NCBI GenBank assembly: GCA_964612895.1
Contig: CAZTFL010000001.1
Location: 588,708 to 612,707 of the forward strand
Origin: Candidatus Woesearchaeota archaeon
Lineage (GTDB): Archaea > Nanobdellota > Nanobdellia > Pacearchaeales > GW2011-AR1
DNA: 24,000 bases
Direction of reading: 5' to 3'
A model generated the notes under the pieces. It was given only the letters and a program-made list of their open reading frames with translations. It was not told the origin of the DNA and searched no databases. Positions 1,180-17,558 of this stretch are shown here, piece by piece. Made by a program: the position numbers and the translations under genes. How positions within the stretch are numbered: position 1 is the stretch's first letter; every line of letters begins with the position of its first letter.

Positions 1180-3900
1180 ATGAGTAAGAGTGACTTTAAG
1201 GGGAATTTTGATAAATTCAAGAAGATTTTTTTAAATGAAAAGGTTCAGTGGGGAATTGTTATTACTCTTTTATTTGTTGTTTTGTTCTTAAGTAGTTCTA
1301 TTAGATTAAGTAACTTGAATTTATTAAAGGATGAGACTACTGGAAATTATATTCCGATGGCTTTAGATCCATTTTATTTTCTTCGTCTTGCTGAAACTAT
1401 TTTAGAAAATGGAAGTTTGCCAGAATTTGATGAGTATAGAGCGTGGTTTGGTTATTCTGAACAACAGTGGGTTTTAGAATTACTTCCTTATTCAGTTGTG
1501 GGAATGTATAAATTTGTTAATTTATTTTCTAGTAATATAACTCTTAATTTTATAGATGTAATTTCTCCAGTAGTTTTTTTTATTTTAGGAGGTTTAATTT
1601 TCTTTTTTCTTAATTATGCTCTTACAAAGAATAAATGGCTATCTATTCTTTCTACTACATTTTTATCGTTTACTAGTGCTTATTTGTATAGGACAATGAC
1701 TGGTTTTGCAGATCATGAGGCAATTGGAATGGTTGGTTTGTTTTTGTCTTACCTTTCTTTTGTCTATATTATGAAGGTTTTAGATAACGATAAAATTAAA
1801 TTGTCAAAGATAATAATCGGTTCACTTCTTGTTGGATTGGCGAGTTTTATTTCGTTTTTTGCTTGGGGAGGAGGATTTAGATTTTTATTAGTGATATTTC
1901 CTCTTACTACATTTTTATATTGGATTTTTAACGTAAGAGAAAAAGAACATTTTGGAAGGAATACTTTAATTGTATATTATTCATGGATGGCTATTACATT
2001 ATTATTTACTGGAATTTTTAATTTGGGAATGAAAAGAGTTTTTGATACGTATTTTATGGCTACTTCAGGAATTGTTTCTTTGTTCGTTGCTGTTTTCATT
2101 TTTATTGATTTTATTGTTGTTAAAAAAATAGATTTGTTTAAATTTATTAAGAAGAAGTATAGGATATTATATAGTTTATTTTTTACATTTATTGCTGGCT
2201 TTTTAGGTTTATTTGCTATAGGTAAAAATCCGGTAAAGTTAATTTTTGCTATTTTGAATTATTTACTTAAACCATTTGGTAGTGATAGAGTAGGTTTAAC
2301 CGTAGCTGAGAATGCTCAACCTTATTTAGTTGATTGGATAAATAATACGGGTGCGATTATTTTTTGGTTATTTGTTTTTGGAATGTTGTTTTTTGGTATA
2401 AAATTAATGAGAAGTTTAAAAGAAATTAAACATAAATCTATATTTTTATTTTTATATATTTTCATGATTTGTGGTATATTATTTTCTAGAATTTCATCAA
2501 CTAGTGTTTTTAATGGAGATGGTTTTTTGAGTAAAATATTTTATTTCTTACCCCTGATATGTTTCTGGGTATATTTATTCCACTTAAGATTTGAAGAAAA
2601 ATTTGTTTGGTCTGGAATGGATTCTTTTATTTTTGCTTGGATGTTTTTTACTTTAATCTCAGGAAGAGCTGCTGCTAGAATGTTTTTCGCAATCACACCT
2701 TTAGTTTGTTTTATGGCTGCCTATTGTATAATTAGATTAGTTGAAGAGTTTAAGAGATCTAAAGACGATATGTTGAAGATACTTTTAGGAATATTAATTG
2801 TTTTTAGTTTAGTAATTTCTGTCGTTGGAGTTGCTCAATCTTATACTTCTATTAATTATGCTGCTAAGTATACTGGTTTGTCTGCTGATTCTCAATGGCA
2901 AAATACAATGGCTTGGGTTAGAGAGAATACAACAAGTTTTGATATTTTTGGTCATTGGTGGGATTATGGTTATTGGGTTCAAACATTAGGAGAAAGAACA
3001 ACTATTGCGGATGGTGGTTATCATCCAAACTATCTCGTTCATTTTATTGGGAGATATGTATTAACTACTCCAAATCCAGAAACAGCTTTTAGTTATTTGA
3101 AGACAACGAATGTTAGTTATCTCTTAATTGATCAAACAGATTTAGGAAAATATTCTGCGTACTCAAAAATAGGTAGTGATGAGAATTGGGACAGGTTTAG
3201 TGTTATTCCTGTTGGAAAATACGATGCAACTCAAACTCAAGAGAGTGCGAATGAAACTGTTATGATTTATTATATGCAAGGAGTTGTTGATGAAGATTTT
3301 AGTTATGATAGTAATTTTGATGGTAAAAAAGATATTCTTTTGCCTGGACCAACTTATGATGATATAGGAAATCCTAGTTATAATTCATATTTAGGAGCTG
3401 TTATTTTTAGAATAGGTAAAGATAATTTATTACAGCCTAATGGAATTTACATACTTAACGGAAAACAATACAGAATTCCTATTAGATATGTTTATTTGAA
3501 TAATGAATTATATGATTTTAAGAGTGGTATTGATGCTGTTATTTCTATTGTTCCTAGCGTAGAAACGAATAAAGTTGATCCATTAGGTGGAATGATTTAT
3601 CTTAGTCCTAAGGTTAAAGATTCTTTGTTCGCCCAATTGTATTTATTAGATGATGTTTTTGGTAATTATGAAAACTTTGAATTAGTTCATGAAGAATTAG
3701 ATAGTTTAGTTAGTCAGGTTAGAGCTTTTACTGAGGATTTTAATTACACCGAATTTTTAATATATAATGGTGGTTTAAGAGGTCCAATAAAAATATGGGA
3801 CGTTAGAAATATTTCAGAAGAAGTTGAAACATATGACGAGTTTCATTATGATTTTGTTGGAAAAGAAGAGTATGGATATTTAGATAGTTTGTTTGAATAA
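1180..3900 (+). CDS. aglB: Dolichyl-phosphooligosaccharide-protein glycosyltransferase (STT3/AglB family oligosaccharyltransferase), 906 aa
   Basis: About 13 predicted TM helices are followed by a large soluble C-terminal domain. The catalytic 'WWDYGYW' motif sits at nt 2956-2970. Acidic loop motifs are present ('ALDPFYF', 'GFADHEAIG'), and 'DQTDLGKYSAYSKI' looks like a DK-type motif. Confidence 0.9.
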   Translation: MSKSDFKGNFDKFKKIFLNEKVQWGIVITLLFVVLFLSSSIRLSNLNLLKDETTGNYIPMALDPFYFLRLAETILENGSLPEFDEYRAWFGYSEQQWVLELLPYSVVGMYKFVNLFSSNITLNFIDVISPVVFFILGGLIFFFLNYALTKNKWLSILSTTFLSFTSAYLYRTMTGFADHEAIGMVGLFLSYLSFVYIMKVLDNDKIKLSKIIIGSLLVGLASFISFFAWGGGFRFLLVIFPLTTFLYWIFNVREKEHFGRNTLIVYYSWMAITLLFTGIFNLGMKRVFDTYFMATSGIVSLFVAVFIFIDFIVVKKIDLFKFIKKKYRILYSLFFTFIAGFLGLFAIGKNPVKLIFAILNYLLKPFGSDRVGLTVAENAQPYLVDWINNTGAIIFWLFVFGMLFFGIKLMRSLKEIKHKSIFLFLYIFMICGILFSRISSTSVFNGDGFLSKIFYFLPLICFWVYLFHLRFEEKFVWSGMDSFIFAWMFFTLISGRAAARMFFAITPLVCFMAAYCIIRLVEEFKRSKDDMLKILLGILIVFSLVISVVGVAQSYTSINYAAKYTGLSADSQWQNTMAWVRENTTSFDIFGHWWDYGYWVQTLGERTTIADGGYHPNYLVHFIGRYVLTTPNPETAFSYLKTTNVSYLLIDQTDLGKYSAYSKIGSDENWDRFSVIPVGKYDATQTQESANETVMIYYMQGVVDEDFSYDSNFDGKKDILLPGPTYDDIGNPSYNSYLGAVIFRIGKDNLLQPNGIYILNGKQYRIPIRYVYLNNELYDFKSGIDAVISIVPSVETNKVDPLGGMIYLSPKVKDSLFAQLYLLDDVFGNYENFELVHEELDSLVSQVRAFTEDFNYTEFLIYNGGLRGPIKIWDVRNISEEVETYDEFHYDFVGKEEYGYLDSLFE

Positions 3901-5793: not shown

Positions 5794-6531
5794 ATGATAA
5801 AAAAAATAAAACGTATATTAAAACAGGGAGGTAAGAAATTGTTATATGAAAAAATAGTAAACAAATTTAGAAATATTTTAGGATTAAATGAAATTTCAAA
5901 AAAACAAATAAAAAAATTAATAGGTAGTAATCCCCAAACGATTTTAGAAATTGGTGCTGCAGATGGAAAAGATTCTATGGAATTTTTAAAATGTTTTAAA
6001 TCAAGTAAAATATTCTTGTTCGAGCCAGATCCTAGAAATGTTAATATATTAATAAAGAAATTTTCAAATAATAAAAATATCTTTATCGAAAAATTTGCTA
6101 TTTCAGACAAAAATGGAGAAACTACTTTTTATCAATCAATGAAAGAGGATGTTTTATGGGCATATTCATCTTCTATTAAAAAGCCTAAAAATCATTTTAA
6201 TCAATTTCCAGATATAAAATTTAATAAATCAATAAAAGTTAAGACAAAAACACTTGATGATTGGTCAAAAGAGAATAAAATTGATTGTATAGATTTTATT
6301 TGGGCAGATGTTCAAGGTGCAGAGAAGGAAATGATTATAGGTGGTATGGAAACATTAAATAATAAAACTAAATATTTTTATACGGAATACTCAAATAATA
6401 ATTTATATGAAAATGAAATCTCTTTAAATGAAATAAAAGAACTTTTAACAAATTTTGAAATTGTAAAAATCTTTGGTACTAAAAATAGTATATACGGGAA
6501 TGTTCTTTTTAAAAATAAAAAAATAAAATGA
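5794..6531 (+). CDS. FkbM-family SAM-dependent methyltransferase, 245 aa
   Basis: The motif order typical of the FkbM (Methyltransf_21) family is present: 'ILEIGAADGKDS', 'LFEPDPRNVNIL', 'FAISDKNGETTFY' and 'IDFIWADVQGAEKEMIIGG'. The stop overlaps the next start (ATGA at 6528-6531). Confidence 0.75.
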   Translation: MIKKIKRILKQGGKKLLYEKIVNKFRNILGLNEISKKQIKKLIGSNPQTILEIGAADGKDSMEFLKCFKSSKIFLFEPDPRNVNILIKKFSNNKNIFIEKFAISDKNGETTFYQSMKEDVLWAYSSSIKKPKNHFNQFPDIKFNKSIKVKTKTLDDWSKENKIDCIDFIWADVQGAEKEMIIGGMETLNNKTKYFYTEYSNNNLYENEISLNEIKELLTNFEIVKIFGTKNSIYGNVLFKNKKIK

Positions 6532-7502
6532 AAATAAATTTCTATAATCCTTATGATAATTCCGGATTTAATAATTGTTTTGTTTCGAAATATATACCAA
6601 ATATCGAAAAAGATAAAAAAAATGGAGATGTAATTGTAGAATATATTCATAAAGGGTTTTCTGAAAATTTTTTTAATTCACCAAAAAAACTTCTTTTATC
6701 AGGAGAAAATCTTTATTATAAATTAAATTTATTTAAATTAATAGAATATATTTCTAAAAAGATAAAAGTTGATTTGAAGTTTTTGAATAAAATATTACCA
6801 AAAAAATTGTTGGATTTAAAGCTGGGATATATGCGCCCGAAATATCTAAATTACATAAAAAAGATATCTAAAAATGATAATAAAAAAGATTATGCAATAA
6901 TTTGTAATGATATAAAAGGTAAGAATATATTAAATCTTCCGTATTTTTTTCATGTAAATTATATTATGAATAAAATATTTCAAAATAAAAAAAAGATTAA
7001 AATACCTAAAAAATTTTGTTGCATATTAATTTCAAATGAATCTGCTTTTGATAGAATCAATTTTGTAAAGAAATTATCAAGGTATAAAAAAGTTGATATA
7101 TATGGAAAGACTTCTTTAACAAATTCGGATAATTCAAAATTACCAGATGGGTTCCATAATAATTCAACTTTTTATTCGCAATATAAATTTGTAATTTGTT
7201 TCGAAAATTCGTTTTCTAATGAATATATTACAGAAAAGCTTCCAAATGTAATGATAGGTAAATCTATTCCAATTTATCGTGGTGCTCCAAATGTAGGAGA
7301 ATATTTTAATACAAAATCTTTTATTAATTATGATGATTATGGTTCATATGAAAAGATGATTGAAAAGATAATTGAACTAGATAAGGATAACGATAAATAT
7401 CTAGAATTTGCAAACATTCCATTTTTAACAAAGAAAAATAAAAATAAGATAAGAGATAAAGAATCCGAATTGAAACGATTTTTAAAAAAAATATTTAATT
7501 AA
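6528..7502 (+). CDS. GT10-family alpha-1,3(/4)-fucosyltransferase-like glycosyltransferase, 324 aa
   Basis: 'FYSQYKFVICFENSFSNEYITEKLPNVMIGKSIPIYRGAPNVGEYFNTKSFINYDDY' lines up closely with the conserved GT10 block of Helicobacter FucT as I recall it ('LSQYKFNLCFENSQGYGYVTEKILDAYFSHTIPIYWGSPSVAKDFNPKSFVNVHDF'). 'LLLSGENLYY' and 'CCILISNES' also match upstream GT10 blocks. Confidence 0.85.
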   Translation: MKINFYNPYDNSGFNNCFVSKYIPNIEKDKKNGDVIVEYIHKGFSENFFNSPKKLLLSGENLYYKLNLFKLIEYISKKIKVDLKFLNKILPKKLLDLKLGYMRPKYLNYIKKISKNDNKKDYAIICNDIKGKNILNLPYFFHVNYIMNKIFQNKKKIKIPKKFCCILISNESAFDRINFVKKLSRYKKVDIYGKTSLTNSDNSKLPDGFHNNSTFYSQYKFVICFENSFSNEYITEKLPNVMIGKSIPIYRGAPNVGEYFNTKSFINYDDYGSYEKMIEKIIELDKDNDKYLEFANIPFLTKKNKNKIRDKESELKRFLKKIFN

Positions 7503-7571: not shown

Positions 7572-8078
7572 TTATTTTTTTACTTTAAGTATTACCCGTA
7601 GTTCCTTTGCTGGGAAAATCCAACAGAATATTTCTTGATAAATTCTCGGAAATAAATTAAAGAACGAAAAGAAAAAAAATTGTTTTCTCCATATTAATTT
7701 TTTATTTTCTGTTTTAAAGTTTCCAGTAGATTGCCAGTGACTTTGATGATTAGCATCTAAAGAATCAAAACTAGTATATGTAAAGTGGTGATAGTGATCG
7801 AGTGCGGAGAATGAACTTTCATGTGAAAAAAATGGAACTCTTATAAAAATAAGAGCATTATTTTTAGATACTCTATAAATTTCTTTAAATAAATTAAGTG
7901 GCTCATGAAAGTGTTCTAATACATGATTAAGTATTATTTCATCGACAGAGTTTGTTTTAAATGGAAGAGGTTTATTTAAATCTACAATTTTATCTGCTCC
8001 AATATCTTTTGACCAATCACAATTTAGATAGTCTTTTCTAATATCTCTTCCACAACCAAGATTTAATTTTAGTGTCAT
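7572..8078 (-). CDS. Class I SAM-dependent methyltransferase (Methyltransf_11-like), 168 aa
   Basis: It carries motif I 'LNLGCGRD' and 'VDEIILNHVLEHF'. It lies on the same strand as, and downstream of, the kinase/nucleotidyltransferase fusion gene. Confidence 0.7.
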   Translation of the reverse strand: MTLKLNLGCGRDIRKDYLNCDWSKDIGADKIVDLNKPLPFKTNSVDEIILNHVLEHFHEPLNLFKEIYRVSKNNALIFIRVPFFSHESSFSALDHYHHFTYTSFDSLDANHQSHWQSTGNFKTENKKLIWRKQFFFFSFFNLFPRIYQEIFCWIFPAKELRVILKVKK

Positions 8079-8167: not shown

Positions 8168-9316
8168 TCATTTTCTTCTGATTTTTATTTTAATTGCATT
8201 TTCTATAGGTGTTTGAGATAATAATACTAAATATCCTCCTCCTCCAGCTCCTGTTAATTTCCATCCAGATACACCAGAATTTCTATAATATTCAATTTTT
8301 TCTTTTATCCAATCGGGGCATGTTGCTGGGAACATATTAATTTGTGCATCAAAACTATCTGTAAAAGATTTTGCGAATCTATTAAAATCTTTTTGTATTA
8401 TTGCATTAAAGCATTCGTTAGCTGCATCAGATAATTTTTTTACATTTTCAGTTGTGATATTTTCGCCTTTAAAAACGTAATAATCATCTCTTCTTTTTTC
8501 TAATTCAATTAAATAAATATTTTTCTCTAACCAATCTAAAATATCTTCATCTAATATATTTTCTATTTTTGTTGGCCAGTATTTTCCATCAAATAACGAG
8601 TATGTTAATCCAGGGAAAATTATTCCAATATGATCTTGAGCTCCAGCGATTTCTCTTTCTGGAGTTCCTGGCGGGTTCTCAAAACTAAAAAGTATTTTCG
8701 CTAAATGTTCTGGATCTTCTTTGGGTAAAAAATCTCCCCATAATTTTATTGCTTTGTTTCTTGTAGAAGAAGCCATTCCACTTCTAAAATTAAAAAATTG
8801 CTCTGGTTCTATTGATATATCCAAAACAGGTCCAGAATAATATTTTGATACATATGGTTGGTCTAACCATGCTCCAGCAATATCAAGTCTATAAGGAATT
8901 TTAGATTTTTTATATCTTAATTCGGTGGAACTTCTTTCAGGTAAATTTTCATGAGGTTTTCTTTCTAATACAATATATTCAATTCCCATTTTTTCACATA
9001 ATTCCTTTTTTTCTTTAGCATCACCATCTTTGTTGACTATAAATATATCAGGTTTTACTTTCTCTAATTCATTTACAAAATCCAATATTCCAACTCCAGA
9101 ACCAATATATGCTTCTTTAACACTTTTAATATTATTAATAATAAATAATCTTTCTTTTTCATTATATGTAGGAGTTAATTCTTTTAATCGTTTTATCGTA
9201 ACATCAGATGCTACGGAAACGTATAAATCTCCAAATTCAGCAGCCTGTTTTAAAAATTCAATATGTCCAGCATGTAAGCAATCAAAACAACCACTAACAA
9301 ATACTTTTTTATTCAT
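8168..9316 (-). CDS. Bifunctional fusion of an N-terminal cytidylyltransferase-fold nucleotidyltransferase (~aa 1-125) and a C-terminal GHMP-family sugar kinase (fucokinase/HddA-like, ~aa 135-382)
   Basis: The N-terminus 'VFVSGCFDCLHAGHIEFLKQAAEFGDLYVSVASD' is the GxFDxxHxGH signature of TagD, HldC and RibL. The C-terminal part has 'YRLDIAGAWLDQPY' (compare RIDLAGGWSDTPP), 'FRSGMASSTRNKA' (a degenerate GHMP motif 2) and 'GWKLTGAGGGGYLVLL' (GHMP motif 3). Confidence 0.7.
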   Translation of the reverse strand: MNKKVFVSGCFDCLHAGHIEFLKQAAEFGDLYVSVASDVTIKRLKELTPTYNEKERLFIINNIKSVKEAYIGSGVGILDFVNELEKVKPDIFIVNKDGDAKEKKELCEKMGIEYIVLERKPHENLPERSSTELRYKKSKIPYRLDIAGAWLDQPYVSKYYSGPVLDISIEPEQFFNFRSGMASSTRNKAIKLWGDFLPKEDPEHLAKILFSFENPPGTPEREIAGAQDHIGIIFPGLTYSLFDGKYWPTKIENILDEDILDWLEKNIYLIELEKRRDDYYVFKGENITTENVKKLSDAANECFNAIIQKDFNRFAKSFTDSFDAQINMFPATCPDWIKEKIEYYRNSGVSGWKLTGAGGGGYLVLLSQTPIENAIKIKIRRK

Positions 9317-9429: not shown

Positions 9430-10059
9430 ATGGAAGAGATAGAAGAAAATAAATTTATTATAGAAAGAGATAAAGATCTAGATTTGATTATTAATTCTGT
9501 TAATGGTTTAAAAAAATGTTGTAATGAAATTTATAAATTTGCTTCAATTATAGCTGATAGTTATGATAATAATAAAAAAGTGGTTTTTTGTGGAGTTGGA
9601 AAAAATGCTTTATTGTCAGAAATGATTTGTGAATTTTTACAACCATTTAATGTTGTTTCTTTAGCACTAGATCATAATAGGGCAGTCCATGGAAATTTTG
9701 GTATATTATGTAAAAATGATATTTTTATATTATCTACAAAATCAGGGAATACAGTCGAATTGATATATATGATGGAGTGTTTGAAAAATAAAATGAATAT
9801 GGAGAATGTTTTTTTGATTTGTTCAAATAAAAATGCAGAATTAATTAAAAAATTTAAATTTAAAGATATTCTGATTATCCCACATTTTAATGAAATATCA
9901 AGATTTTCTCATTCTCCACAAACAACAATTTTAAATTATCTTATAGTAATGCAAATAATTGTTAATAAAATTGCTAAGAAAAAAGATATTACCGAAAGAG
10001 ATTATTTGCTCAACCATCAATCTGGAGAAATTGGTAAAAAATTTGAATTATTTAAATAA
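9430..10059 (+). CDS. Single-domain SIS sugar-phosphate isomerase, KpsF/GutQ-like (arabinose-5-phosphate isomerase family) without CBS domains, 209 aa
   Basis: 'VVFCGVGKNALLSEMICEF', 'AVHGNFGI', 'STKSGNTVEL', 'SPQTT' and 'NHQSGEIGKKF' parallel the KpsF blocks GMGKSG, HGDLGM, SNSGES, APT(S/T)ST and HPGGxLGRK. It is transcribed divergently from the fusion gene. Confidence 0.75.
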   Translation: MEEIEENKFIIERDKDLDLIINSVNGLKKCCNEIYKFASIIADSYDNNKKVVFCGVGKNALLSEMICEFLQPFNVVSLALDHNRAVHGNFGILCKNDIFILSTKSGNTVELIYMMECLKNKMNMENVFLICSNKNAELIKKFKFKDILIIPHFNEISRFSHSPQTTILNYLIVMQIIVNKIAKKKDITERDYLLNHQSGEIGKKFELFK

Positions 10060-10123: not shown

Positions 10124-10699
10124 ATGTTATATGATAGATGTTTAGGTTTTTTACTAATTTTTCTTTTTGGTTTGGGCTTTGTTTTTGCTTCTTCTTATAG
10201 TGTTTGTGCAGAGAATTGCGACTTTGCTTCTATTTCGCAGGCAATTTCTAATTCAAATGATGGGGATATTATTAATGTTTTAACTGGAGATTATAACGAA
10301 AAAATTGTTATAAATAAGAATTTAATTTTATTTGCAGAAAAAGGCGTAAATATTTATGGAAATAGTCCCGTTGTTTTAATTACAGACAAGAATGTTACTA
10401 TTAAGGGATTTAATATTTTTCCAACAGATGATTTAAGAATAGGAATTAAGATAAATAATTCAAATGATTATTCGATTGATGGAAATTTCGTCGAAGGAAA
10501 TATTGTTTATGGAATGGGAGTTGTTCCAAAGACGAGTTTTTTGACTGGAATGGCGGTCGCTGATGATTTTGATTCAGTAGATTGGTTATGGATTTTTTTA
10601 ATTATAGTGTTTTTCTTGGTTTCTTTTGTTATTGTCCGTATTGTAAAAAAGAAAAAACATTTATTGAACAAGGTAATAAAAGAAGATATTGGAATATAA
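10124..10699 (+). CDS. Small secreted, C-terminally membrane-anchored protein with right-handed parallel beta-helix (NosD/pectin-lyase-like) repeats, 191 aa
   Basis: It has an N-terminal signal-like segment. 'CDFASISQAISNSNDGDIINVLTGDYNEKIVINKNLIL' is the typical start of beta-helix repeat proteins. The C-terminus is a TM helix 'WLWIFLIIVFFLVSFVIVRIV' followed by a KKKKH tail. Confidence 0.5.
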   Translation: MLYDRCLGFLLIFLFGLGFVFASSYSVCAENCDFASISQAISNSNDGDIINVLTGDYNEKIVINKNLILFAEKGVNIYGNSPVVLITDKNVTIKGFNIFPTDDLRIGIKINNSNDYSIDGNFVEGNIVYGMGVVPKTSFLTGMAVADDFDSVDWLWIFLIIVFFLVSFVIVRIVKKKKHLLNKVIKEDIGI

Positions 10700-11427: not shown

Positions 11428-12459
11428 ATGAAATTTCGTGAATGGTATGATGTGAATTATAGGAAATTACTAATAATTCCTATTTTGTTAATTTTATCAT
11501 CTTTGATTTATATTAGTATTTTTTATTCTAATAATCAATCTTTTTTTTATACAGATGTTTCTTTGACTGGTGGAACTTCTTATACTATTTTAACAAATTA
11601 TTCTTCAGCTGATTTAGATAAAGAATTGTCAAATATATTTGAAGATTTTACTATTAAGGGAATTTCTGATGGTTCTGGAATGCAAACTCAACTAATAATT
11701 TCTGTTTCTGAAGAGAACTCAGAACAGATGAAGTTAGAATTGGAGAAAATTTTGGGATTTGAATTAAATGATGACAATACTTCCATTGAATTTACTTCAT
11801 CTAATCTTTCTAATGCTTTTTTAAAACAATTATATATCGCAATAATTTTAGCGTTCTTTTGGATGGGGGCAGTTGTTTTTGTAATGTTTGGGAAGGGTGG
11901 AAAATTGAAATTTTGGGTAATAATTATAAATTTAATTTTTGCAATTTTTTTAGGTAATTTTTTCTTTGAAATAAATTCTATTATTTCCTTTATTATTTTC
12001 TTATTATTTTCAATAAGTTTGTTTTATATTTATATAAAAAATTCTGTTCCATCTTTTGCCGTTATACTTTCTGCATTTGCAAATATTCTAATGACTTTAA
12101 CTGTTGTTAATTTGATGGGTTTGAAATTGTCTACAGCAGGAATTGTGTCTTTTTTGATGATTATTGGTTATTCTGTTGATACAGATATTATGTTAATAGT
12201 TCGTTTATTGAAGAAAGAAGAATCAGTTAATCATGCTATCTTAGGGGCTTTTAAGACAGGGATTTCAATGACAATTACTTCAATTATAGCTGTAGCAATT
12301 GCTTTATTTGTTGTTTATCCTTTTGCGAGTGTTTTAAATGAAATCTTTTTAATTCTTTTAATTGGTTTGGTTTTTGATTTAATGAACACTTGGCTTACTA
12401 ATGTTTCAATATTGAAGTGGTATTTTGATAAAAAAACAAAAAAGGAGGAAAAAATATGA
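11428..12459 (+). CDS. secF: Protein-export membrane protein SecF, 343 aa
   Basis: An N-terminal TM helix is followed by 'DVSLTGGTSYTI' (the SecF DFxGGT-like block), a periplasmic domain and six C-terminal TM helices containing 'IIGYSVDTDIML'. It is translationally coupled (ATGA) to secD. Confidence 0.85.
   Translation: MKFREWYDVNYRKLLIIPILLILSSLIYISIFYSNNQSFFYTDVSLTGGTSYTILTNYSSADLDKELSNIFEDFTIKGISDGSGMQTQLIISVSEENSEQMKLELEKILGFELNDDNTSIEFTSSNLSNAFLKQLYIAIILAFFWMGAVVFVMFGKGGKLKFWVIIINLIFAIFLGNFFFEINSIISFIIFLLFSISLFYIYIKNSVPSFAVILSAFANILMTLTVVNLMGLKLSTAGIVSFLMIIGYSVDTDIMLIVRLLKKEESVNHAILGAFKTGISMTITSIIAVAIALFVVYPFASVLNEIFLILLIGLVFDLMNTWLTNVSILKWYFDKKTKKEEKI
12444..12448 (+). promoter_or_regulatory. 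Shine-Dalgarno-like GGAGG upstream of secD (an internal operon gene)
   Basis: The sequence 'aaaaGGAGGaaaaaatATG' is a G-rich pentamer 7 nt before the start, in an otherwise very AT-rich sequence. Confidence 0.5.
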
Positions 12460-14018
12460 AATTTACTCCTAAAATTTGGTTCTTTGTAATAGTTGCTGGT
12501 CTTTCATTCTTATCTTTATTTGTTTCCTTAAATCCTGTTGGATTGACTTTCTTGCAAAAAGGTGTTTTGATTGGTTCTGTTGATTCAAATTCTGTTTTAT
12601 ACGAAGATGGTGTTCGTCAAGGGATGACTATAACTGCAATAAATGGAAATAAGATAAATAATTTGTCAGATTTTTATGAAAATATTCATCCATATTTATT
12701 ATTAAATGAAAATGAAACTATTCGGGCTGAAATTTCTATTAAAGGAGTTAAAAATTCGATAATTGGTTTATATGGAAGAGATTCATTTAAAGATATAAAT
12801 GTTAAGAATATTCCATCGAGTAAGCTTAAAACTGGTTTGGATTTACAGGGTGGTGCTAGGGCCTTTGTTAGAGTTAATGGAAGTGTTAGTTCTTCTGATT
12901 TAGATGATGTTATTGCGATTTTAGAAGAAAGACTTAATGTTTATGGATTATCAGATATGCGATTGTATAAAGTAGATGCAGGGACAGAACAGCTTGTGGG
13001 TATTGAAATTGCGGGATCTTCTCCTGAACAACTAGAATCACTAATTGAAGAACAAGGTCATTTTGAAGCAAAAATAGGAAATTATAGTGTTTTTATTGGT
13101 GGAGATAAGGATGTTACTCATGTTGCTAGAACAGGCGAAAATGCCGGAATTTATGAATGTAGAGATACAGAAGGTGGTGCTTATTGTAGTTTTAGATTTA
13201 CCATAACATTAAGTGTTGTTGCGGCAGATAAATTTGCTGAGGCTACAAAAGATTTGGATGTAGAAGGGGATTATCTGTCTGAAAATATAACTTTTTATAT
13301 AGATGGTATTGAAACATCTGCACTTAAAATCTCAAGTGGATTAAAAGGTAGTCCTCAAACAACAATTTCTATAAGTGGTTCGGATGTCGGAGAAGATAAA
13401 CAGTCTGCTTATGATGGTGCAGAATTAGAAATGAAAAAATTACAAACAATATTAATTACAGGTAGTTTACCATACAAATTAGAAATAGTTAAAATAGATA
13501 GAATTTCTCCAAATGTAGGCGAAGATTTTACAAAAAGAATTTTATTAGCTGGTATTTTTGCATTCTTTGGTGTTATGTTATTTACATTTTTTAAATATAG
13601 GAAAATAAAAATTTCAATAGCATTAGTTTTAGTTTCATTTGCGGAAATATTAATTACTTTGGGAATTGCTTCTTTAATTAATTGGAATTTAGATTTAGCT
13701 TCTATTGCTGGAATTATTGCTGCTATTGGAACTGGAATAGATAGTGAAATTGTTATATTAGATGAATCAAGAGTAAAGGGAGAAAGTTTGAAAGAACAGA
13801 TAAAAAAAGCGTTATTTATTATAACAACTTCTTTTGTTACAACATTCGTTGCTCTTTTACCATTGACAGGGATTCTTGGATTTTTAGGAATAGGGGCTGC
13901 TTCGGCAGGATTACTTAAAGGATTTGCATTTACAACAATAATTGGAATAACTATAGGTGTTTTAATCAGTAGGCCAGCCTTCTCTGATATTGCAGAACAG
14001 CTGAAAGCTAACGATTAA
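12456..14018 (+). CDS. secD: Protein-export membrane protein SecD, 520 aa
   Basis: It carries 'LKTGLDLQGGARAFV' (the SecD LGLDLxGG block), a large extracytoplasmic domain and a C-terminal TM bundle with 'AAIGTGIDSEIVILDE'. A GGAGG sequence lies 7 nt upstream of the ATG. Confidence 0.85.
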   Translation: MKFTPKIWFFVIVAGLSFLSLFVSLNPVGLTFLQKGVLIGSVDSNSVLYEDGVRQGMTITAINGNKINNLSDFYENIHPYLLLNENETIRAEISIKGVKNSIIGLYGRDSFKDINVKNIPSSKLKTGLDLQGGARAFVRVNGSVSSSDLDDVIAILEERLNVYGLSDMRLYKVDAGTEQLVGIEIAGSSPEQLESLIEEQGHFEAKIGNYSVFIGGDKDVTHVARTGENAGIYECRDTEGGAYCSFRFTITLSVVAADKFAEATKDLDVEGDYLSENITFYIDGIETSALKISSGLKGSPQTTISISGSDVGEDKQSAYDGAELEMKKLQTILITGSLPYKLEIVKIDRISPNVGEDFTKRILLAGIFAFFGVMLFTFFKYRKIKISIALVLVSFAEILITLGIASLINWNLDLASIAGIIAAIGTGIDSEIVILDESRVKGESLKEQIKKALFIITTSFVTTFVALLPLTGILGFLGIGAASAGLLKGFAFTTIIGITIGVLISRPAFSDIAEQLKAND

Positions 14019-14063
14019 ATTTTGATACAAACTTTTTTAAACTGACTTTTTATTTTCTTAATA

Positions 14064-14699
14064 ATGGAAATTAAGAAAGGAGATTTTATAGAAATAGATT
14101 TTACTGGAAGGATTAAAGATGGAAATATTTTTGATACTACAATTAAATCTGTAGCGGAAGAAGAAAAATTAGATTCGAAAAATGTAAAACCTTTTATTTT
14201 GTCTGTTGGTTCTGATATGTTGCCTAAAGGATTTGATGATGATTTAATTGGAAAAGATATTGAAAAAAAATATTCTGTCAATGTTTCTCCTGAAAAAGGG
14301 TTTGGATTAAGAAATAAAAGTTTAGTTAAAATGGTACCTACAAAATTATTTTATGAACAAAAAATTATGCCTCAGAGAGGAATGCAACTTGCTTTAGATG
14401 ATCAAGTTGTTAAAATAATATCAGTTTCAGGCGGTAGAACTTTAGTTGATTTCAATGGACCTCTTGCAGGAAGAGAAATTATTTACGATTACAAAATTAA
14501 TAGATTAATAAATGATGAAAAAGAAAAAATAAATTCATTACAAGATTTCTTTTTTAGAAAGAAGTTTGATTTTGAAATTAAAGATAATAAAATTTTATTT
14601 AATATAGATAAAGAGTATGAACCATATTTTAAAATATTTGCTGGAAAATTTAAAGAAATTCTTGGAAAAGATATAGAAATAAGTGTAAAAAATATTTAA
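14064..14699 (+). CDS. FKBP-type peptidyl-prolyl cis-trans isomerase (archaeal long-type, SlyD-like with insert-in-flap and a C-terminal domain), 211 aa
   Basis: 'GDFIEIDFTGRIKDGNIFDTT', 'LPKGFDDDLIGKDIEKKYSVNVSPEKGFG' and 'GGRTLVDFNGPLAGREIIYDYKI' follow the archaeal FKBP/SlyD pattern. Confidence 0.8.
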   Translation: MEIKKGDFIEIDFTGRIKDGNIFDTTIKSVAEEEKLDSKNVKPFILSVGSDMLPKGFDDDLIGKDIEKKYSVNVSPEKGFGLRNKSLVKMVPTKLFYEQKIMPQRGMQLALDDQVVKIISVSGGRTLVDFNGPLAGREIIYDYKINRLINDEKEKINSLQDFFFRKKFDFEIKDNKILFNIDKEYEPYFKIFAGKFKEILGKDIEISVKNI

Positions 14700-14852
14700 T
14701 TTTATGATTTTTTCAGTGTTTGAAAAGTTTTCTGTTTACAATATTTTTCTTTTTGTGTTATAATTAATTTATTCAGAAATACTTATGAGTGTAATTTTTA
14801 TAATTAAAGTGTATTGTCTTAAGTATTATCAACTTTTTTATTTTATTTATTA

Positions 14853-14927
14853 CGCCCTTGACAGGATTTGAACCTGCGACTCCTTCCTTAGGGGGGAAGT
14901 GCTCTATCCAAACTGAGCTACAAGAGC
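14853..14927 (-). tRNA. tRNA-Arg (anticodon CCU), 75 nt, no intron, CCA not encoded; the anticodon loop reads CCCCUAA (C at position 33)
   Basis: I folded the reverse complement by hand. The acceptor is GCTCTTG/CAAGGGC, the D arm is GCTC-AGTTTGGATA-GAGC, and the anticodon stem is CTTCC/GGAAG. The variable loop is GAGTC, the T arm is GCAGG-TTCAAAT-CCTGT, and the discriminator is G. Confidence 0.8.
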
Positions 14928-15141
14928 ATAAATACAAATATAAAAAATACTATAAAAACTTTGAGATTACAAATGAATAAAAACTTTAAGTGTTTAGAAA
15001 TAACATGGATCATGGGTTGGATGACAGACGGCGGAAATTAGTCGTCAGAAATCATATATCAACAATCAGAGTAAGTTTTCTAATAGAAAAGGTCAGATTG
15101 GAGTTGGAAAAATTCTTGCGATAGTTTTAGGCGTTATAGTT

Positions 15142-16710: not shown

Positions 16711-17558
16711 TTATCTATTTTGTATAATAATTCTTTTGGATAATTTTCTTCAGATATGCCAGATGATTTTAATAAAATGTAAGGATATTCATATTCTTTT
16801 TTGTTTTTTATATCCAAAATAGTATTTGTTTCTAGATTATAGGTAGGGGCTTCTTTTGTAAATTTTTTATTAACTGGACTATTTTCTATTAAGGAAAAAA
16901 AATCTCCAGAGTTAATTCCCTTGTTATATACTATTATATTATTATTTTTATAAGTAATAGCCACATAAGAATCTTCTATTGGAATATTATCACTATAATT
17001 CAAATTAAAATAATGTGTATCTCCTACAATAATATGTTCCGTTATTTCTGCATTAAATGAAATAATAGGCATAAAAGATTCTGAGATAACTTTCCCTGTT
17101 TTATCTATTTCCTTAAAATTAGAAACATCATAATAAATTAAAAAATCTTTTTCTTTATCAGAAATTATGTCATAACCAATTCTTGTACCTTTTGGAGCAA
17201 CCTTAATTCCATCTTCATTCATTTCTAATGCAATATTATTATTTTTTAATTTCTCGTAAAAATTAATCATTTCAGATTCCTCTTTTTGATTTTCTGAAAT
17301 TGGAGATTCTTGAATTGATTCTATTTCTCTAGTGTATTTTTCTGTTTGAGGTTCAGTTTGAATGTAAGATTCTTGAGATGTTTTTATATCTTGGATAACA
17401 GGATTTTCTTGTTGTACTATTTGAGTTATAGAGGCCTGGCTTACTTTTTCGTCTAGTGTTTTTTTAGAATCTTTACAAGAAATAGAACCAAATAACAGAC
17501 TAGCAACTAAAGCGGACACTCCTAATGCTTTTGCTATCCGGTTAGTTGTTTTATTCAT
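16707..17558 (-). CDS. Hypothetical secreted protein with a lipobox-like signal peptide, 283 aa
   Basis: The N-terminus 'MNKTTNRIAKALGVSALVASLLFGSISCKDSKK' has an n-region, an h-region and a Cys. It is followed by a Q/E/S-rich linker and a beta-rich C-terminal domain. I recognise no family. Its stop overlaps the convergent 522-aa gene by 4 nt. Confidence 0.6.
   Translation of the reverse strand: MNKTTNRIAKALGVSALVASLLFGSISCKDSKKTLDEKVSQASITQIVQQENPVIQDIKTSQESYIQTEPQTEKYTREIESIQESPISENQKEESEMINFYEKLKNNNIALEMNEDGIKVAPKGTRIGYDIISDKEKDFLIYYDVSNFKEIDKTGKVISESFMPIISFNAEITEHIIVGDTHYFNLNYSDNIPIEDSYVAITYKNNNIIVYNKGINSGDFFSLIENSPVNKKFTKEAPTYNLETNTILDIKNKKEYEYPYILLKSSGISEENYPKELLYKIDN

What the first reader, a model, noticed from the sequence alone, without database searches (positions are those of the whole stretch)
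8168..9316. Fusion of a HIGH-motif (TagD/HldC-type) nucleotidyltransferase with a fucokinase-like GHMP kinase: a candidate single-polypeptide sugar-activation module with an uncharacterised architecture
Seen in sequence:
- aa 1-125 carry the GxFDxxHxGH signature ('SGCFDCLHAGH') of the cytidylyltransferase-like fold.
- aa ~135-382 carry 'YRLDIAGAWLDQPY', a degenerate motif 2 'RSGMASSTRN' and motif 3 'LTGAGGGGYLVLL' of GHMP kinases. The first block is closest to the RIDLAGGWSDTPP block of L-fucokinase-type enzymes.

Established knowledge:
- The known bifunctional sugar activators pair other folds. HldE is a PfkB kinase plus a cytidylyltransferase-fold adenylyltransferase. Bacteroides Fkp is a nucleotide-diphospho-sugar-transferase-fold pyrophosphorylase plus a GHMP fucokinase.
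- This protein combines the Fkp/HddA-type kinase with the HldC-type transferase, with the transferase first. I do not recognise this as a characterised enzyme.

Inference: it phosphorylates a sugar at C1 and converts it to an NDP-sugar for the neighbouring glycosyltransferases.
- Hypothesis A is fucose salvage feeding the GT10 fucosyltransferase that ends about 660 bp away.
- Hypothesis B is an HldE-analogous heptose or other aldose-phosphate route fed by the divergently transcribed SIS isomerase. No GmhB-like phosphatase is visible, which argues against B.
Basis: partly seen in the sequence, partly recalled or inferred. Interest (0 to 1): 0.75.

Follow-up and report, generated by a model that had tools for sequence, protein, structure and literature searches.

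The report
Compact two-domain L-fucose salvage enzyme
This archaeal gene fuses a fucose kinase to an unusual type of nucleotide-adding enzyme; it most likely recycles free fucose into an activated sugar for surface glycans, and it belongs to a very widespread family that nobody has yet tested biochemically.

Summary
ORF 8168-9316 (-) encodes a 382-aa fusion of a HIGH-motif (TagD/HldC-type) nucleotidyltransferase (aa 1-134) and a short GHMP kinase (aa 138-382). Profile searches, a confident AlphaFold model (pLDDT 90) and Foldseek support both halves.

The kinase is fucokinase-type, not heptokinase-type. It keeps the fucose-contact pattern of Bacteroides Fkp (R-x6-W-x-D and G-x-Q-D).

The fusion is not rare. 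At least 505 species genomes carry it (Bacteroidota, Anaerolineae, Ignavibacteriota, Verrucomicrobiota, DPANN archaea). In 38 of 80 species-level loci it lies within 6 kb of fucose genes: fucP, fucU or RhaM-type mutarotases (sometimes fused), fucI, GH29 fucosidase, oxidative fucose genes and gmd-fcl.

The heptose hypothesis fails. The window's SIS protein is KdsD-like, not GmhA. A close archaeal relative carries its own separate HddA/HddC-type heptose set.

One 2026 paper (Akkermansia Amuc_1591, a divergent homologue) proposed from genetics a "fucose-nucleotidyltransferase" with this architecture. There is no biochemistry, and the nucleotide is unknown.

Verdict: a real, probably functional, convergent analogue of Fkp. 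It is a new variant of a known kind, moderately interesting.

The parts
8168..9316 (-). Whole gene: 382-aa fusion protein (stop codon 8168-8170)
   Evidence: ORF list. An identical protein, P0001, is in the public collection. The N-terminus MNKKVFVSGC matches the start of homologues.
8915..9316 (-). N-terminal HIGH-type (cytidylyltransferase-like) nucleotidyltransferase domain, aa 1-134
   Evidence: Pfam PF01467 aa 7-134, E 1.6e-14. NCBIfam rfaE_dom_II 3.6e-15 and cyt_tran_rel 8e-13. PDB sequence hits 3glv, TagD, ECT, Fom1. Foldseek matches to 3glv, HldC, TagD and Fom1 with TM(target) 0.69-0.86.
9263..9274 (-). HxGH motif (H15-A-G-H18) within GCFDxxHxGH
   Evidence: Translation. H15, G17 and H18 are invariant in 36 homologues. 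H15 and H18 are each kept in 36/38 divergent representatives.
8924..8935 (-). R-S-S-T (aa 128-131), counterpart of the RTEGISTT / ISTT phosphate-binding motif of TagD-type enzymes
   Evidence: Translation. S129 and T131 are invariant and R128 nearly invariant. The motif assignment rests on established knowledge of the TagD/CCT family.
8171..8905 (-). C-terminal compact GHMP kinase domain, aa 138-382, fucokinase-type
   Evidence: Pfam GHMP_kinases_C aa 305-370, 20.8 bits against a cut-off of 21. NCBIfam Fkp NF009948 1.6e-10. Profile A2 against PDB: Fkp 9iip 1.1e-14, HddA 3k85 6.8e-7. Foldseek: WcbL 1.6e-10, Fkp kinase 9.5e-9, HddA 7e-8.
8855..8896 (-). GHMP motif 1 / sugar site: P-Y-R143-L-D-I-A-G-A-W150-L-D152-Q153-P
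   Evidence: Aligns to Fkp P-V-R592-I-D-M-A-G-G-W599-T-D601-T602-P. In Fkp, R592 stabilises the transition state, W599 stacks on C4-C5-C6 of fucose, and D601 binds the C3 and C4 hydroxyls (PMC11982464). HddA has G at the Trp position.
8759..8785 (-). GHMP motif 2 (phosphate-binding loop): R-S-G-M-A-S-S-T-R, aa 178-186
   Evidence: S179, G180, S184 and R186 are invariant in 36 homologues. G180 is kept in 38/38 and S184 in 37/38 divergent representatives. Amuc_1591 has RSGLGGSG at the same place.
8633..8644 (-). G225-A-Q227-D228: predicted catalytic base (D228) and C4-OH ligand (Q227)
   Evidence: Same G-x-Q-D spacing as Fkp G759, Q761 and D762. G225, Q227 and D228 are invariant. G is kept in 38/38, D in 37/38 and Q in 29/38 divergent representatives. 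The correspondence is inferred from pattern and spacing; no structural superposition was done.
8231..8260 (-). GHMP motif 3: K-L-T-G-A-G-G-G-G-Y, aa 353-362
   Evidence: Aligns to Fkp K-L-P-G-A-G-G-G-G-Y. Invariant.
7572..8078 (-). Downstream same-strand methyltransferase (89-bp gap), probably co-transcribed
   Evidence: Pfam Methyltransf_11 E 1.3e-8. Gap computed. Co-transcription is an inference.
6528..7502 (+). GT10-family glycosyltransferase (candidate fucosyltransferase), convergent, 665 bp away; presumed user of the product
   Evidence: Pfam Glyco_transf_10 E 2e-23. Its start overlaps the stop of the FkbM methyltransferase gene 5794-6531. That GT10 enzymes use GDP-L-fucose is established knowledge.
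9430..10059 (+). Divergent single-domain SIS protein, KdsD/KpsF-like; probably NOT part of the module
   Evidence: NCBIfam KpsF/GutQ 4.7e-14 and KdsD 2.6e-11, all below cut-off, with no GmhA hit. An SIS gene does not recur next to the fusion in other genomes.

Best explanation
The gene encodes a bifunctional L-fucose salvage enzyme. Its C-terminal GHMP kinase phosphorylates free beta-L-fucose at C1 with ATP. D228 acts as the base, R143 and the RSGMASS loop stabilise the transferred phosphate, and W150, D152 and Q227 hold the sugar. The N-terminal HIGH-motif nucleotidyltransferase then condenses L-fucose-1-phosphate with an NTP to give an NDP-L-fucose, most likely GDP-L-fucose. That product feeds fucosyltransferases such as the neighbouring GT10 in this archaeon's AglB-linked glycosylation island. 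It is a small (382 aa) convergent analogue of the 949-aa Bacteroides Fkp, built with a different transferase fold. Shown here: domain identity, fold, conservation of catalytic and fucose-contact residues, and a strong family-level genomic association with fucose uptake, mutarotation, catabolism and GDP-fucose genes. Inferred: the actual substrate, the two-step reaction, the nucleotide used, and use of the product by the GT10.
For: Domains and fold: (pLDDT 90.2).

Fucokinase-type active site: the kinase-half profile hits Fkp at 1.1e-14 against HddA at 6.8e-7. Motif 1 aligns residue for residue with Fkp R592/W599/D601, whereas HddA lacks the Trp. G-x-Q-D matches Fkp G759/Q761/D762. These positions persist in representatives only 28-54 % identical.

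Context in 80 species-level loci:
- fucP in 10 loci; the representative scores TIGR00885 309.7 bits against a cut-off of 280
- RhaM-type mutarotase adjacent in 11 loci and fused in 4
- FucU in 6 loci
- FucI in 5 loci, 1078 bits
- GH29 fucosidase in 4 loci
- oxidative L-fucose pathway (L-fuconolactonase, FAH-family hydrolase and SDR clusters) in 9 loci
- operon orders gmd-fcl-fusion-rhaM-fucP (L019) and manC-fusion-gmd-fcl (L077)
- in total 38/80 loci have a fucose-linked neighbour, 28/52 among loci with full flanks

Distance control: fucose-linked ORFs make up 22 % within 1 kb and fall to 0-1 % at 6-10 kb.

Archaeal evidence: GT10 lies 665 bp away in the window, and an Fcl-like gene (315 bits) abuts the fusion in L006.

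Independent genetics on a homologue with the same architecture: Amuc_1591 is 36 % identical over aa 3-184, with hhalign probability 99.85 %. Loss-of-function and missense alleles relieve D-arabinose toxicity, and L-fucose rescues growth (PMC13313206).
Against: No biochemical assay exists for any family member.

By homology the transferase half is nearest to adenylyl- and cytidylyltransferases: HldC, a 3glv-type protein, PPAT and TagD. I know of no HIGH-family sugar-1-phosphate guanylyltransferase, so GDP as the nucleotide rests on context only.

The archaeal members lack fucP, fucU or mutarotase neighbours, so the source of free fucose in this organism is unknown. The fucose link for archaea is transferred from bacterial homologues at 52-57 % identity, plus the GT10 and Fcl adjacencies.

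Fkp T602 is replaced by an invariant Gln (Q153), so the preferred sugar could be a close fucose analogue.

Pfam GHMP_kinases_C is marginal for this protein (20.8 against 21 bits), and GHMP_kinases_N is not detected.
Confidence: 0.72

Rival explanations
1. The two-step chemistry on L-fucose is the same, but the product is not GDP-L-fucose. The HIGH-type domain makes CDP- or ADP-L-fucose, a nucleotide sugar not described so far, used by dedicated glycosyltransferases. A candidate user is the WecG/TagA-type GT26 that is translationally coupled to the fusion in DPANN relatives.
For: All characterised close relatives of the N-terminal domain use ATP or CTP (HldC, PPAT, TagD, ECT, Fom1). A GT26 gene overlaps the fusion's stop codon by 4 bp in L092 and in the P0004 locus, and recurs in 6 loci.
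Against: The fusion sits inside gmd-fcl / manC operons and next to a GT10, and all known enzymes of those families make or use GDP-fucose. No paper mentions CDP- or ADP-fucose.
Confidence: 0.2
2. Hypothesis B: an HldE analogue that phosphorylates D-glycero-D-manno-heptose 7-phosphate and, after GmhB action, makes an NDP-heptose. The neighbouring SIS isomerase would feed it.
For: The N-terminal domain's best NCBIfam hit is the HldC domain. Foldseek's top kinase hit is the heptokinase WcbL. A true GmhA (212 bits, above cut-off) and a GmhB (176 against 178 bits) lie 2 kb upstream of the fusion in archaeal locus L006.
Against: The window's SIS protein is KdsD/KpsF-like with no GmhA hit, and the window has no GmhB. 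The P0004 genome has the fusion and, on the same contig, a complete separate set: SIS_2, a stand-alone GHMP kinase with N and C domains, an NTP_transferase and a GmhB-type HAD. Motif 1 has the fucokinase Trp where HddA has Gly. The gene abutting the fusion in L006 is Fcl-like (315 bits), not HldD (28 bits). No heptose genes recur in the 80 bacterial and archaeal loci.
Confidence: 0.03
3. The physiological substrate in this archaeon is D-arabinose, the C6-less analogue of L-fucose, or another fucose-like sugar such as L-galactose. The divergent KdsD-like isomerase would supply D-arabinose 5-phosphate, which is dephosphorylated and then activated to an NDP-D-arabinopyranose, as the Fkp-like enzymes of Leishmania do.
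For: The KdsD-like SIS gene is 113 bp upstream and divergent. The Amuc_1591 genetics imply that this architecture accepts D-arabinose. That the Fkp homologues of Leishmania activate D-arabinose is established knowledge. T602 of Fkp is replaced by Q153.
Against: The SIS adjacency is seen only in this genome. No phosphatase lies nearby. Family-level context is L-fucose throughout, and a GT10 is adjacent.
Confidence: 0.05

Closest known systems
Fkp, bifunctional L-fucokinase / L-fucose-1-phosphate guanylyltransferase of Bacteroides (PDB 5yys, 9iip, 9iit; plant FKGP and Leishmania AFKP80/FKP40 are homologues)
   Same: Predicted overall job: free L-fucose to fucose-1-phosphate to NDP-fucose, on one polypeptide. 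The kinase halves are homologous (E 1.1e-14) and share the R/W/D and G-x-Q-D fucose-site residues and the GAGGGGY motif.
   Different: Fkp's transferase is a GT-A-like domain plus a beta-helix (abstract of PMC11982464), with the kinase at the C-terminus of a 949-aa protein. Here the transferase is an unrelated 134-aa HIGH-motif Rossmann domain and the whole protein is 382 aa. The kinase lobe is about 100 residues shorter. Fkp T602 corresponds to Gln here. The score against the Fkp equivalog model is 39 bits, against a cut-off of 721.
Amuc_1591 of Akkermansia muciniphila, 'putative fucose-nucleotidyltransferase' (Lakey et al., Gut Microbes 2026, PMC13313206)
   Same: Same two-domain order and folds. 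It keeps HxGH, STT, R-x-D-x-A-G-G-W-L-D, RSGLGGS, G-W-Q-D and a G-G-G-Y-G-G-Y motif. It is 36 % identical over aa 3-184, with hhalign probability 99.85 % over 288 columns. Genetics link it to L-fucose and D-arabinose.
   Different: It is a divergent subfamily. The C-terminal lobe does not align by BLASTP, the protein is 363 aa, and it sits in a murJ operon rather than with fucP or gmd-fcl. It did not appear among the best 120 hits of a verrucomicrobial family member. No enzymology has been done, so it is not a characterised reference.
HldE (RfaE), bifunctional heptose 7-phosphate kinase / heptose 1-phosphate adenylyltransferase
   Same: A sugar kinase fused to a HIGH-motif nucleotidyltransferase that acts on a sugar 1-phosphate. 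The N-terminal domain's best NCBIfam hit is the HldC domain (3.6e-15).
   Different: HldE's kinase has the PfkB fold and comes first, and it needs GmhB between the two steps. Here the kinase is GHMP-type and comes second, and the two steps are consecutive. Scores are far below the HldE and HldC cut-offs (42 against 521 bits; 56 against 181.5 bits).
HddA / WcbL GHMP heptokinases
   Same: Closest kinase folds by Foldseek (WcbL 1.6e-10, HddA 7e-8).
   Different: Sequence-profile similarity is much weaker than to Fkp. They have GGG[ST]D instead of GGWxD in motif 1. They are stand-alone proteins of about 340 aa.

Membership tests
Cytidylyltransferase-like (HIGH-motif) nucleotidyltransferases, Pfam PF01467 | Profile match above the curated threshold | tested here: met
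   54.7 bits against a cut-off of 21, aa 7-134. TIGR00125 48.3 bits against 27.7.
Cytidylyltransferase-like (HIGH-motif) nucleotidyltransferases, Pfam PF01467 | HxGH motif and C-terminal (R)xxxSTT motif | tested here: met
   H15-A-G-H18 and R128-S-S-T131 are invariant or nearly invariant in the family.
Cytidylyltransferase-like (HIGH-motif) nucleotidyltransferases, Pfam PF01467 | Rossmann-like fold superposable on TagD or HldC | tested here: met
   Foldseek: TagD 2b7l TM(target) 0.85, rmsd 2.0; 3glv 0.80; HldC 0.71.
Cytidylyltransferase-like (HIGH-motif) nucleotidyltransferases, Pfam PF01467 | Nucleotidyl transfer to a phosphate ester; which NTP is used | not testable with these tools
   Needs an enzyme assay. 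Homology suggests ATP or CTP; context suggests GTP.
GHMP kinase superfamily | Pfam GHMP_kinases_N and GHMP_kinases_C above threshold | tested here: inconclusive
   The C domain scores 20.8 bits against a cut-off of 21, and the N domain is not detected in the window protein. Homologues such as P0073 reach 24.6 bits for the C domain.
GHMP kinase superfamily | Three conserved motifs (motif 1 sugar site, motif 2 P-loop, motif 3 GAGGGG) | tested here: met
   PYRLDIAGAWLDQP, RSGMASSTR and KLTGAGGGGY, all conserved across the family.
GHMP kinase superfamily | Two-lobe GHMP fold | tested here: met
   Foldseek probability 1.00 to WcbL, the Fkp kinase, HddA and galactokinases. hmmsearch of the kinase half hits only GHMP kinases in PDB.
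Fkp-type L-fucokinase | Catalytic Asp (D762) and Arg (R592), plus fucose ligands W599, D601, G759 and Q761 | tested here: met
   R143, W150 and D152 align directly. G225-x-Q227-D228 has the same spacing. Exception: T602 corresponds to Q153.
Fkp-type L-fucokinase | Full-length match to the Fkp equivalog model, and fusion to a GT-A / beta-helix pyrophosphorylase | tested here: not met
   NF009948 scores 39.4 bits against a cut-off of 721, covering only aa 293-378. The transferase here has a different fold. So it works like Fkp but is not a member of that family.
Fkp-type L-fucokinase | Genomic association with L-fucose metabolism | tested here: met
   38/80 loci have fucose-linked neighbours, with distance decay from 22 % to 0 %. 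This holds at family level and mostly in bacteria.
HldE / heptose nucleotide pathway | PfkB-type kinase domain, HldC domain above cut-off, and dependence on GmhA and GmhB | tested here: not met
   The kinase is GHMP-type. HldC model 56 bits against 181.5, and HldE 42 against 521. The window's SIS protein is KdsD-like and there is no GmhB. The P0004 genome has its own HddA/HddC-type set.
Amuc_1591-type putative fucose-nucleotidyltransferase | Same domain order, plus homology over both domains | tested here: met
   BLASTP 2e-31 over aa 3-184. hhalign probability 99.85 % over 288 columns. Motifs conserved.
Amuc_1591-type putative fucose-nucleotidyltransferase | Orthology (same subfamily) | tested here: inconclusive
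   The C-terminal lobe is diverged, and Amuc_1591 is absent from the top 120 hits of a verrucomicrobial member. No phylogeny was made.

The most novel reading that the evidence does not exclude
The HIGH-motif domain does something no member of its superfamily is known to do. One possibility is that it is the first GTP-specific HIGH-type sugar-1-phosphate nucleotidyltransferase, which would make this a 382-aa one-protein route to GDP-L-fucose, convergent with Fkp. The other is that it makes a so far undescribed fucose nucleotide (CDP- or ADP-L-fucose), used by dedicated transferases such as the translationally coupled GT26 in DPANN archaea. The second, more radical version is the one scored here.
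Probability: 0.2. Interest if true: 0.85.

Novelty: new variant of a known kind. Interest (0 to 1): 0.58.

Why it matters
Fucose decorates surface glycans from gut Bacteroidota to archaeal S-layers. So far the only known one-protein salvage route to activated fucose is the large Fkp enzyme, a workhorse of chemoenzymatic glycan synthesis.

This family would be a second, independently evolved solution, built from a different transferase fold and less than half the size. It is present in hundreds of species, including gut Prevotella, Dysgonomonas and Akkermansia relatives, wastewater Anaerolineae and host-dependent DPANN archaea. Databases label it only as 'adenylyl/cytidyltransferase family protein'.

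Three things follow from settling its substrate and nucleotide:
- thousands of annotations would be corrected;
- it would explain how reduced-genome archaea obtain fucosyl donors;
- it could yield a compact biocatalyst, or, if the nucleotide is not GDP, a new sugar nucleotide.

Tried and rejected
- **Heptose/HldE-analogue reading.** I pursued it after finding GmhA- and GmhB-like genes near the fusion in L006. I rejected it for four reasons: the gene abutting the fusion there is Fcl-like rather than HldD; the window's SIS protein is KdsD-like; the P0004 locus has its own HddA/HddC-type genes; and motif 1 has the fucokinase Trp.
- **L-rhamnose as substrate.** The fused and adjacent PF05336 'rhamnose mutarotase' domains suggested it. 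I rejected it because those loci carry fucP, gmd-fcl, fucI and GH29 fucosidase rather than rhamnose genes.
- **A catabolic role as an alternative fuculokinase.** Rejected because the catabolic operons already contain an FGGY kinase, and the sugar site matches an anomeric (C1) kinase.
- **ManC-like NTP_transferase as the real pyrophosphorylase.** It is adjacent in only 4 of 80 loci, so this cannot be general.
- **Finding Amuc_1591 by database search.** A search with the Nibricoccus member did not surface it. The sequence came from the paper's supplement instead.
- **Source organism.** The record holding the identical protein carries no name.
- **Nucleotide specificity.** I made no attempt to predict it from sequence. 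Base recognition in this fold is, as far as I recall, largely through main-chain atoms, so I judged such a prediction unreliable.
Full report
**1. The observation**

The window carries an ATG-initiated ORF at 8168-9316 on the minus strand, 382 aa.

Pfam places aa 7-134 in CTP_transf_like (E 1.6e-14, 54.7 bits against a cut-off of 21). It places aa 305-370 marginally in GHMP_kinases_C (20.8 against 21 bits). NCBIfam adds the HldC domain (3.6e-15), the fucokinase part of Fkp (1.6e-10) and HddA (4e-5). All of these are far below the equivalog cut-offs.

Sequence search of PDB gives 3glv, TagD, ECT and Fom1-CyTase for the first half, and Fkp and HddA for the second.

An AlphaFold2 model built on 36 homologues is confident (mean pLDDT 90.2, pTM 0.73). 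Only the linker, about aa 121-140, is soft. Foldseek against PDB finds TagD, HldC and 3glv for the N-terminal domain (TM on target 0.7-0.86). For the C-terminal domain it finds WcbL, the Fkp kinase, HddA and galactokinases, all with probability 1.00.

**2. Setting in the window**

The window has 20-30 % G+C. It encodes AglB/STT3, FtsZ, an aIF-2B-family protein, SecD/SecF and SpoIIM-like proteins. The closest homologues of the fusion are labelled 'archaeon', Pacearchaeota or Woesearchaeota. The source is therefore most likely a DPANN-type archaeon; this is an inference.

The gene lies in a glycosylation island:
- AglB (1180-3900)
- two GT2 genes
- an FkbM methyltransferase whose stop overlaps the start of a GT10 gene (6528-7502)
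- on the other strand, the fusion followed after 89 bp by a small methyltransferase (7572-8078)

A single-domain SIS gene (9430-10059) is divergent from the fusion, 113 bp upstream.

**3. The family is large and conserved**

The word-indexed search returned about 8000 hits. The best 120 were nearly all 376-391 aa, covered 97-100 % of the query at 52-65 % identity, and were named at most 'adenylyltransferase/cytidyltransferase family protein'.

They span Bacteroidota (Prevotella, Dysgonomonas, Paludibacter, Chitinophagaceae, Saprospiraceae), Chloroflexota (Anaerolineae, including the cultured Anaerolinea thermolimosa), Ignavibacteriota, Verrucomicrobiota, Latescibacterota and DPANN archaea.

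The exhaustive search of 50 %-identity representatives gives 202 clusters at E <= 1e-30. Most are fusions of about 380 aa. Some have N-terminal extensions (536-666 aa). There are also what look like split forms: kinase-only proteins of about 240 aa and transferase-only proteins of about 140-165 aa.

**4. Both active sites look alive**

In 36 homologues the following are invariant:
- G9, C10, D12, H15, G17, H18 (the GCFDxxHxGH block)
- K45 and R56
- S129 and T131 (the STT motif)
- R143, G148, W150, L151, D152, Q153, P154
- S179, G180, S184, R186
- G225, Q227, D228
- K353, G356, G358-G361, Y362

In 38 full-length cluster representatives only 28-54 % identical to the window protein, the same positions persist:

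| Position | Conserved in |
|---|---|
| D12 | 38/38 |
| H15, H18 | 36/38 each |
| R143 | 36/38 |
| aromatic residue at 150 | 36/38 |
| D152 | 37/38 |
| G180 | 38/38 |
| S184 | 37/38 |
| E/D at 213 | 37/38 |
| G225 | 38/38 |
| D228 | 37/38 |

The 'degenerate' motif 2 (RSGMASSTR) is therefore a conserved family-specific variant of the GHMP P-loop, not decay.

**5. Fucokinase-type, not heptokinase-type**

A profile of the kinase half alone hits the Fkp fucokinase in PDB at 1.1e-14, against 6.8e-7 for HddA and 1e-3 or weaker for WcbL.

In the printed motif 1 alignment the three compare as follows:
- Fkp: P-V-R592-I-D-M-A-G-G-W599-T-D601-T602-P-P
- this family: P-f-R-i-D-l-A-G-G-W-l-D-Q-P
- HddA: P-L-R-L-G-L-A-G-G-G-S-D

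The Fkp structure paper (PMC11982464) shows what these residues do:
- R592 stabilises the transition state.
- W599 stacks on C4-C5-C6 of fucose; the W599A mutant loses more than 3000-fold in kcat/Km.
- D601 binds the C3 and C4 hydroxyls.
- Q761 binds the C4 hydroxyl.
- D762 is the general base.

The family's invariant G225-x-Q227-D228 has exactly the spacing of Fkp G759, Q761 and D762. The one difference is that Fkp T602 corresponds to an invariant Gln. I inferred the G-x-Q-D correspondence from pattern and spacing; I could not run a residue-level superposition.

**6. Comparative context**

I called ORFs within 6 kb of the fusion in all loci and clustered them by BLASTP. I then named the recurrent clusters with Pfam and NCBIfam. 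Among the 80 species-level loci:

| Neighbour | Loci | Notes |
|---|---|---|
| L-fucose:H+ symporter FucP | 10 | TIGR00885 309.7 bits against cut-off 280; usually the next gene |
| RhaM-type mutarotase, adjacent | 11 | PF05336, E 1e-26 to 1e-31 |
| RhaM-type mutarotase, fused to the N-terminus | 4 | |
| FucU (unrelated mutarotase family) | 6 | |
| L-fucose isomerase FucI | 5 | 1078 bits against cut-off 775 |
| Class II aldolase | 6 | |
| FGGY rhamnulo/fuculokinase | 4 | |
| LutABC | 4 | an aldehyde:ferredoxin oxidoreductase gene (AFOR) also recurs in the Anaerolineae operons; not tallied across the 80 loci |
| GH29 alpha-L-fucosidase | 4 | |
| Oxidative L-fucose pathway | 9 | L-fucono-1,5-lactonase, FAH hydrolase, UxaA-type dehydratase, SDRs |
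| Gmd/Fcl-type genes | 9 | |

The clearest operons are gmd (574 bits) - fcl (487) - fusion - rhaM - fucP in L019, and manC - fusion - gmd (580) - fcl (411) in L077.

Overall 38/80 loci carry at least one fucose-linked neighbour; among loci with at least 3 kb on both sides it is 28/52. As a control, the share of fucose-linked ORFs falls with distance from the fusion: 22 % within 1 kb, 15.5 % at 1-2 kb, 6-7 % at 2-6 kb, 1.2 % at 6-8 kb and 0 % at 8-10 kb.

Two unrelated mutarotase families recur next to the fusion, and one is sometimes fused to it. That argues the substrate is a free reducing sugar taken in one anomeric form, i.e. salvage by an anomeric kinase. The embedding in gmd-fcl operons argues that the product joins the GDP-L-fucose pool.

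**7. Archaeal relatives**

DPANN homologues (57-65 % identical) share the synteny SecF - SecD - ~153-aa ORF - (SDR) - MOP flippase - fusion - WecG/TagA-type GT26. The GT26 start overlaps the fusion's stop by 4 bp in two genomes.

In the window this block is broken up. SecF/SecD lie at 11428-14018, and the 152-aa ORF and flippase at 17710-19529. The fusion instead sits beside the GT10 operon.

No archaeal locus shows fucP or a mutarotase. The archaeal fucose link therefore rests on four things:
- the identical active-site residues;
- 52-57 % identity to the bacterial proteins;
- the GT10 in the window;
- an Fcl-like gene (315 bits, against 28 bits for HldD) abutting the fusion in L006.

**8. 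The heptose hypothesis**

L006 has a true GmhA (212 bits, above cut-off) and a GmhB (176 against 178 bits) 2 kb upstream of the fusion, which briefly made Hypothesis B attractive. Three results remove it.
- The window's own SIS protein matches the KpsF/KdsD arabinose-5-phosphate isomerase family (4.7e-14) and not GmhA, and the window has no HAD phosphatase.
- The genome of P0004 (64 % identical) carries the fusion and, 4-7 kb downstream of it on the same contig, a complete separate set: SIS_2, a 322-aa GHMP kinase with N and C domains, a 232-aa NTP_transferase and a GmhB-type HAD. The heptose pathway there has its own HddA and HddC.
- Motif 1 has the fucokinase Trp.

**9. Literature**

Full-text searches for the architecture found one relevant paper: Lakey et al., Gut Microbes 2026 (PMC13313206).

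All 12 D-arabinose-resistant suppressors of Akkermansia muciniphila carried mutations in Amuc_1591 (V176G, G326E or a frameshift). L-fucose or mucin relieved the D-arabinose toxicity. The authors' ColabFold model showed an N-terminal adenylyl/cytidylyltransferase domain and a C-terminal domain resembling the Fkp kinase (9IIP). They call it a 'previously uncharacterized fucose-nucleotidyltransferase'. They report no enzymology and do not identify the nucleotide.

I took the sequence from their supplement. Amuc_1591 is 36 % identical to the window protein over aa 3-184 (E 2e-31). It matches the family profile with probability 99.85 % over 288 columns and keeps the key residues. Its C-terminal lobe is diverged, and it did not appear among the top hits of a verrucomicrobial family member. 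It has the same architecture but is a different subfamily.

No paper mentions CDP- or ADP-fucose.

**10. Mechanism and what remains open**

Most likely (about 0.7), the kinase half makes beta-L-fucose-1-phosphate and the HIGH-motif half converts it to an NDP-L-fucose for fucosyltransferases such as the adjacent GT10. That makes it a 382-aa convergent counterpart of the 949-aa Fkp, using a different transferase fold.

The nucleotide is the open point. Homology places the domain among ATP- and CTP-using enzymes, and I know of no HIGH-family sugar-1-phosphate guanylyltransferase. Context points to GDP. Given fucose as the substrate, I put GDP at roughly 0.55-0.6 and CDP or ADP at roughly 0.2-0.25.

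Other things left unexplained:
- the source of free fucose in a DPANN cell;
- the role of the coupled GT26;
- the SDR 'epimerase' next to the fusion in Anaerolineae;
- the KdsD-like neighbour in the window, which together with the D-arabinose genetics leaves a small chance of a D-arabinose route.

**11. Verdict**

It is not a one-off archaeal curiosity. It is a member of a very large, under-annotated family with one recent genetic report and no biochemistry.

I rate it a new variant of a known kind (bifunctional sugar-1-kinase/nucleotidyltransferase salvage enzymes), with interest about 0.58. The interest would rise sharply if the nucleotide turns out not to be GDP.

Noticed in passing
window 9430-10059 (+): A 209-aa single-domain SIS protein, divergent from the fusion. 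Its best matches are the KpsF/GutQ/KdsD arabinose-5-phosphate isomerase family (below cut-off), it lacks the usual CBS pair, and it is not GmhA. Kdo is not expected in an archaeon. D-arabinose is the C6-less analogue of L-fucose, so a link to the fusion is conceivable but untested.
   Followed up: partly
L092 8001-9832; P0004 locus; L006, L009-L011; window 11428-14018 and 17710-19529: DPANN relatives share the synteny SecF - SecD - ~153-aa ORF with no family hit - MOP flippase - fusion - WecG/TagA-type GT26. The GT26 start overlaps the fusion's stop by 4 bp in two genomes. In the window the block is rearranged and no GT26 is present. The 152-aa ORF (17710-18168) overlaps the flippase start and has no Pfam or NCBIfam hit.
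   Followed up: partly
P0073, L025, L028, L050 (580-597 aa); P0238-P0264: Family variants include an N-terminal RhaM-type mutarotase domain followed by about 100 aa of unassigned sequence ahead of the transferase domain, and other N-extended forms of 536-666 aa. There are also apparent split genes: kinase-only of about 240 aa and transferase-only of about 140-165 aa.
   Followed up: partly
L038, L044, L051, L085 (Anaerolineae): Long operons run FucI - FucU - FGGY kinase - aldolase - aldehyde:ferredoxin oxidoreductase - aldolase - fusion - LutABC, with an SDR 'epimerase' (321-335 aa, only weakly Fcl-like) just upstream of the fusion in L051 and L085. The same SDR lies just downstream of the fusion in L067 and L072. 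Its role next to the fusion in a catabolic operon is unexplained.
   Followed up: no
P0004 locus, 13149-17002 in locus coordinates: A complete GDP-heptose-type gene set (GmhA-like SIS_2, HddA-like GHMP kinase, HddC-like NTP_transferase, GmhB-like HAD, SDR) in a DPANN archaeon. L006 and L092 carry GmhA- and/or GmhB-like genes as well. Heptose-containing glycans in these archaea may merit a look.
   Followed up: partly
L035, L047, L049, L062, L071, L084 (Chitinophagaceae): The fusion is consistently followed by a MarR regulator and, wherever the contig extends that far, a 594-aa acyl-CoA dehydrogenase. In L035, L047 and L049 it is preceded by oxidative L-fucose pathway genes; in L062 it is preceded by a GT2 gene on the opposite strand. 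The MarR gene might regulate the fucose genes.
   Followed up: no
window 15142-16710 (+), 16707-17558 (-), 10124-10699 (+): Two sizeable ORFs (522 and 283 aa) have no Pfam family. A 191-aa protein with a weak DUF1565 / beta-helix match and a C-terminal hydrophobic stretch is probably a surface protein.
   Followed up: no
window 1180-3900 (+): A 906-aa AglB/STT3-like oligosaccharyltransferase, recognised only weakly (STT3-PglB_core E 1e-5). It heads the glycosylation island, which suggests the fucose-containing glycan is N-linked.
   Followed up: no
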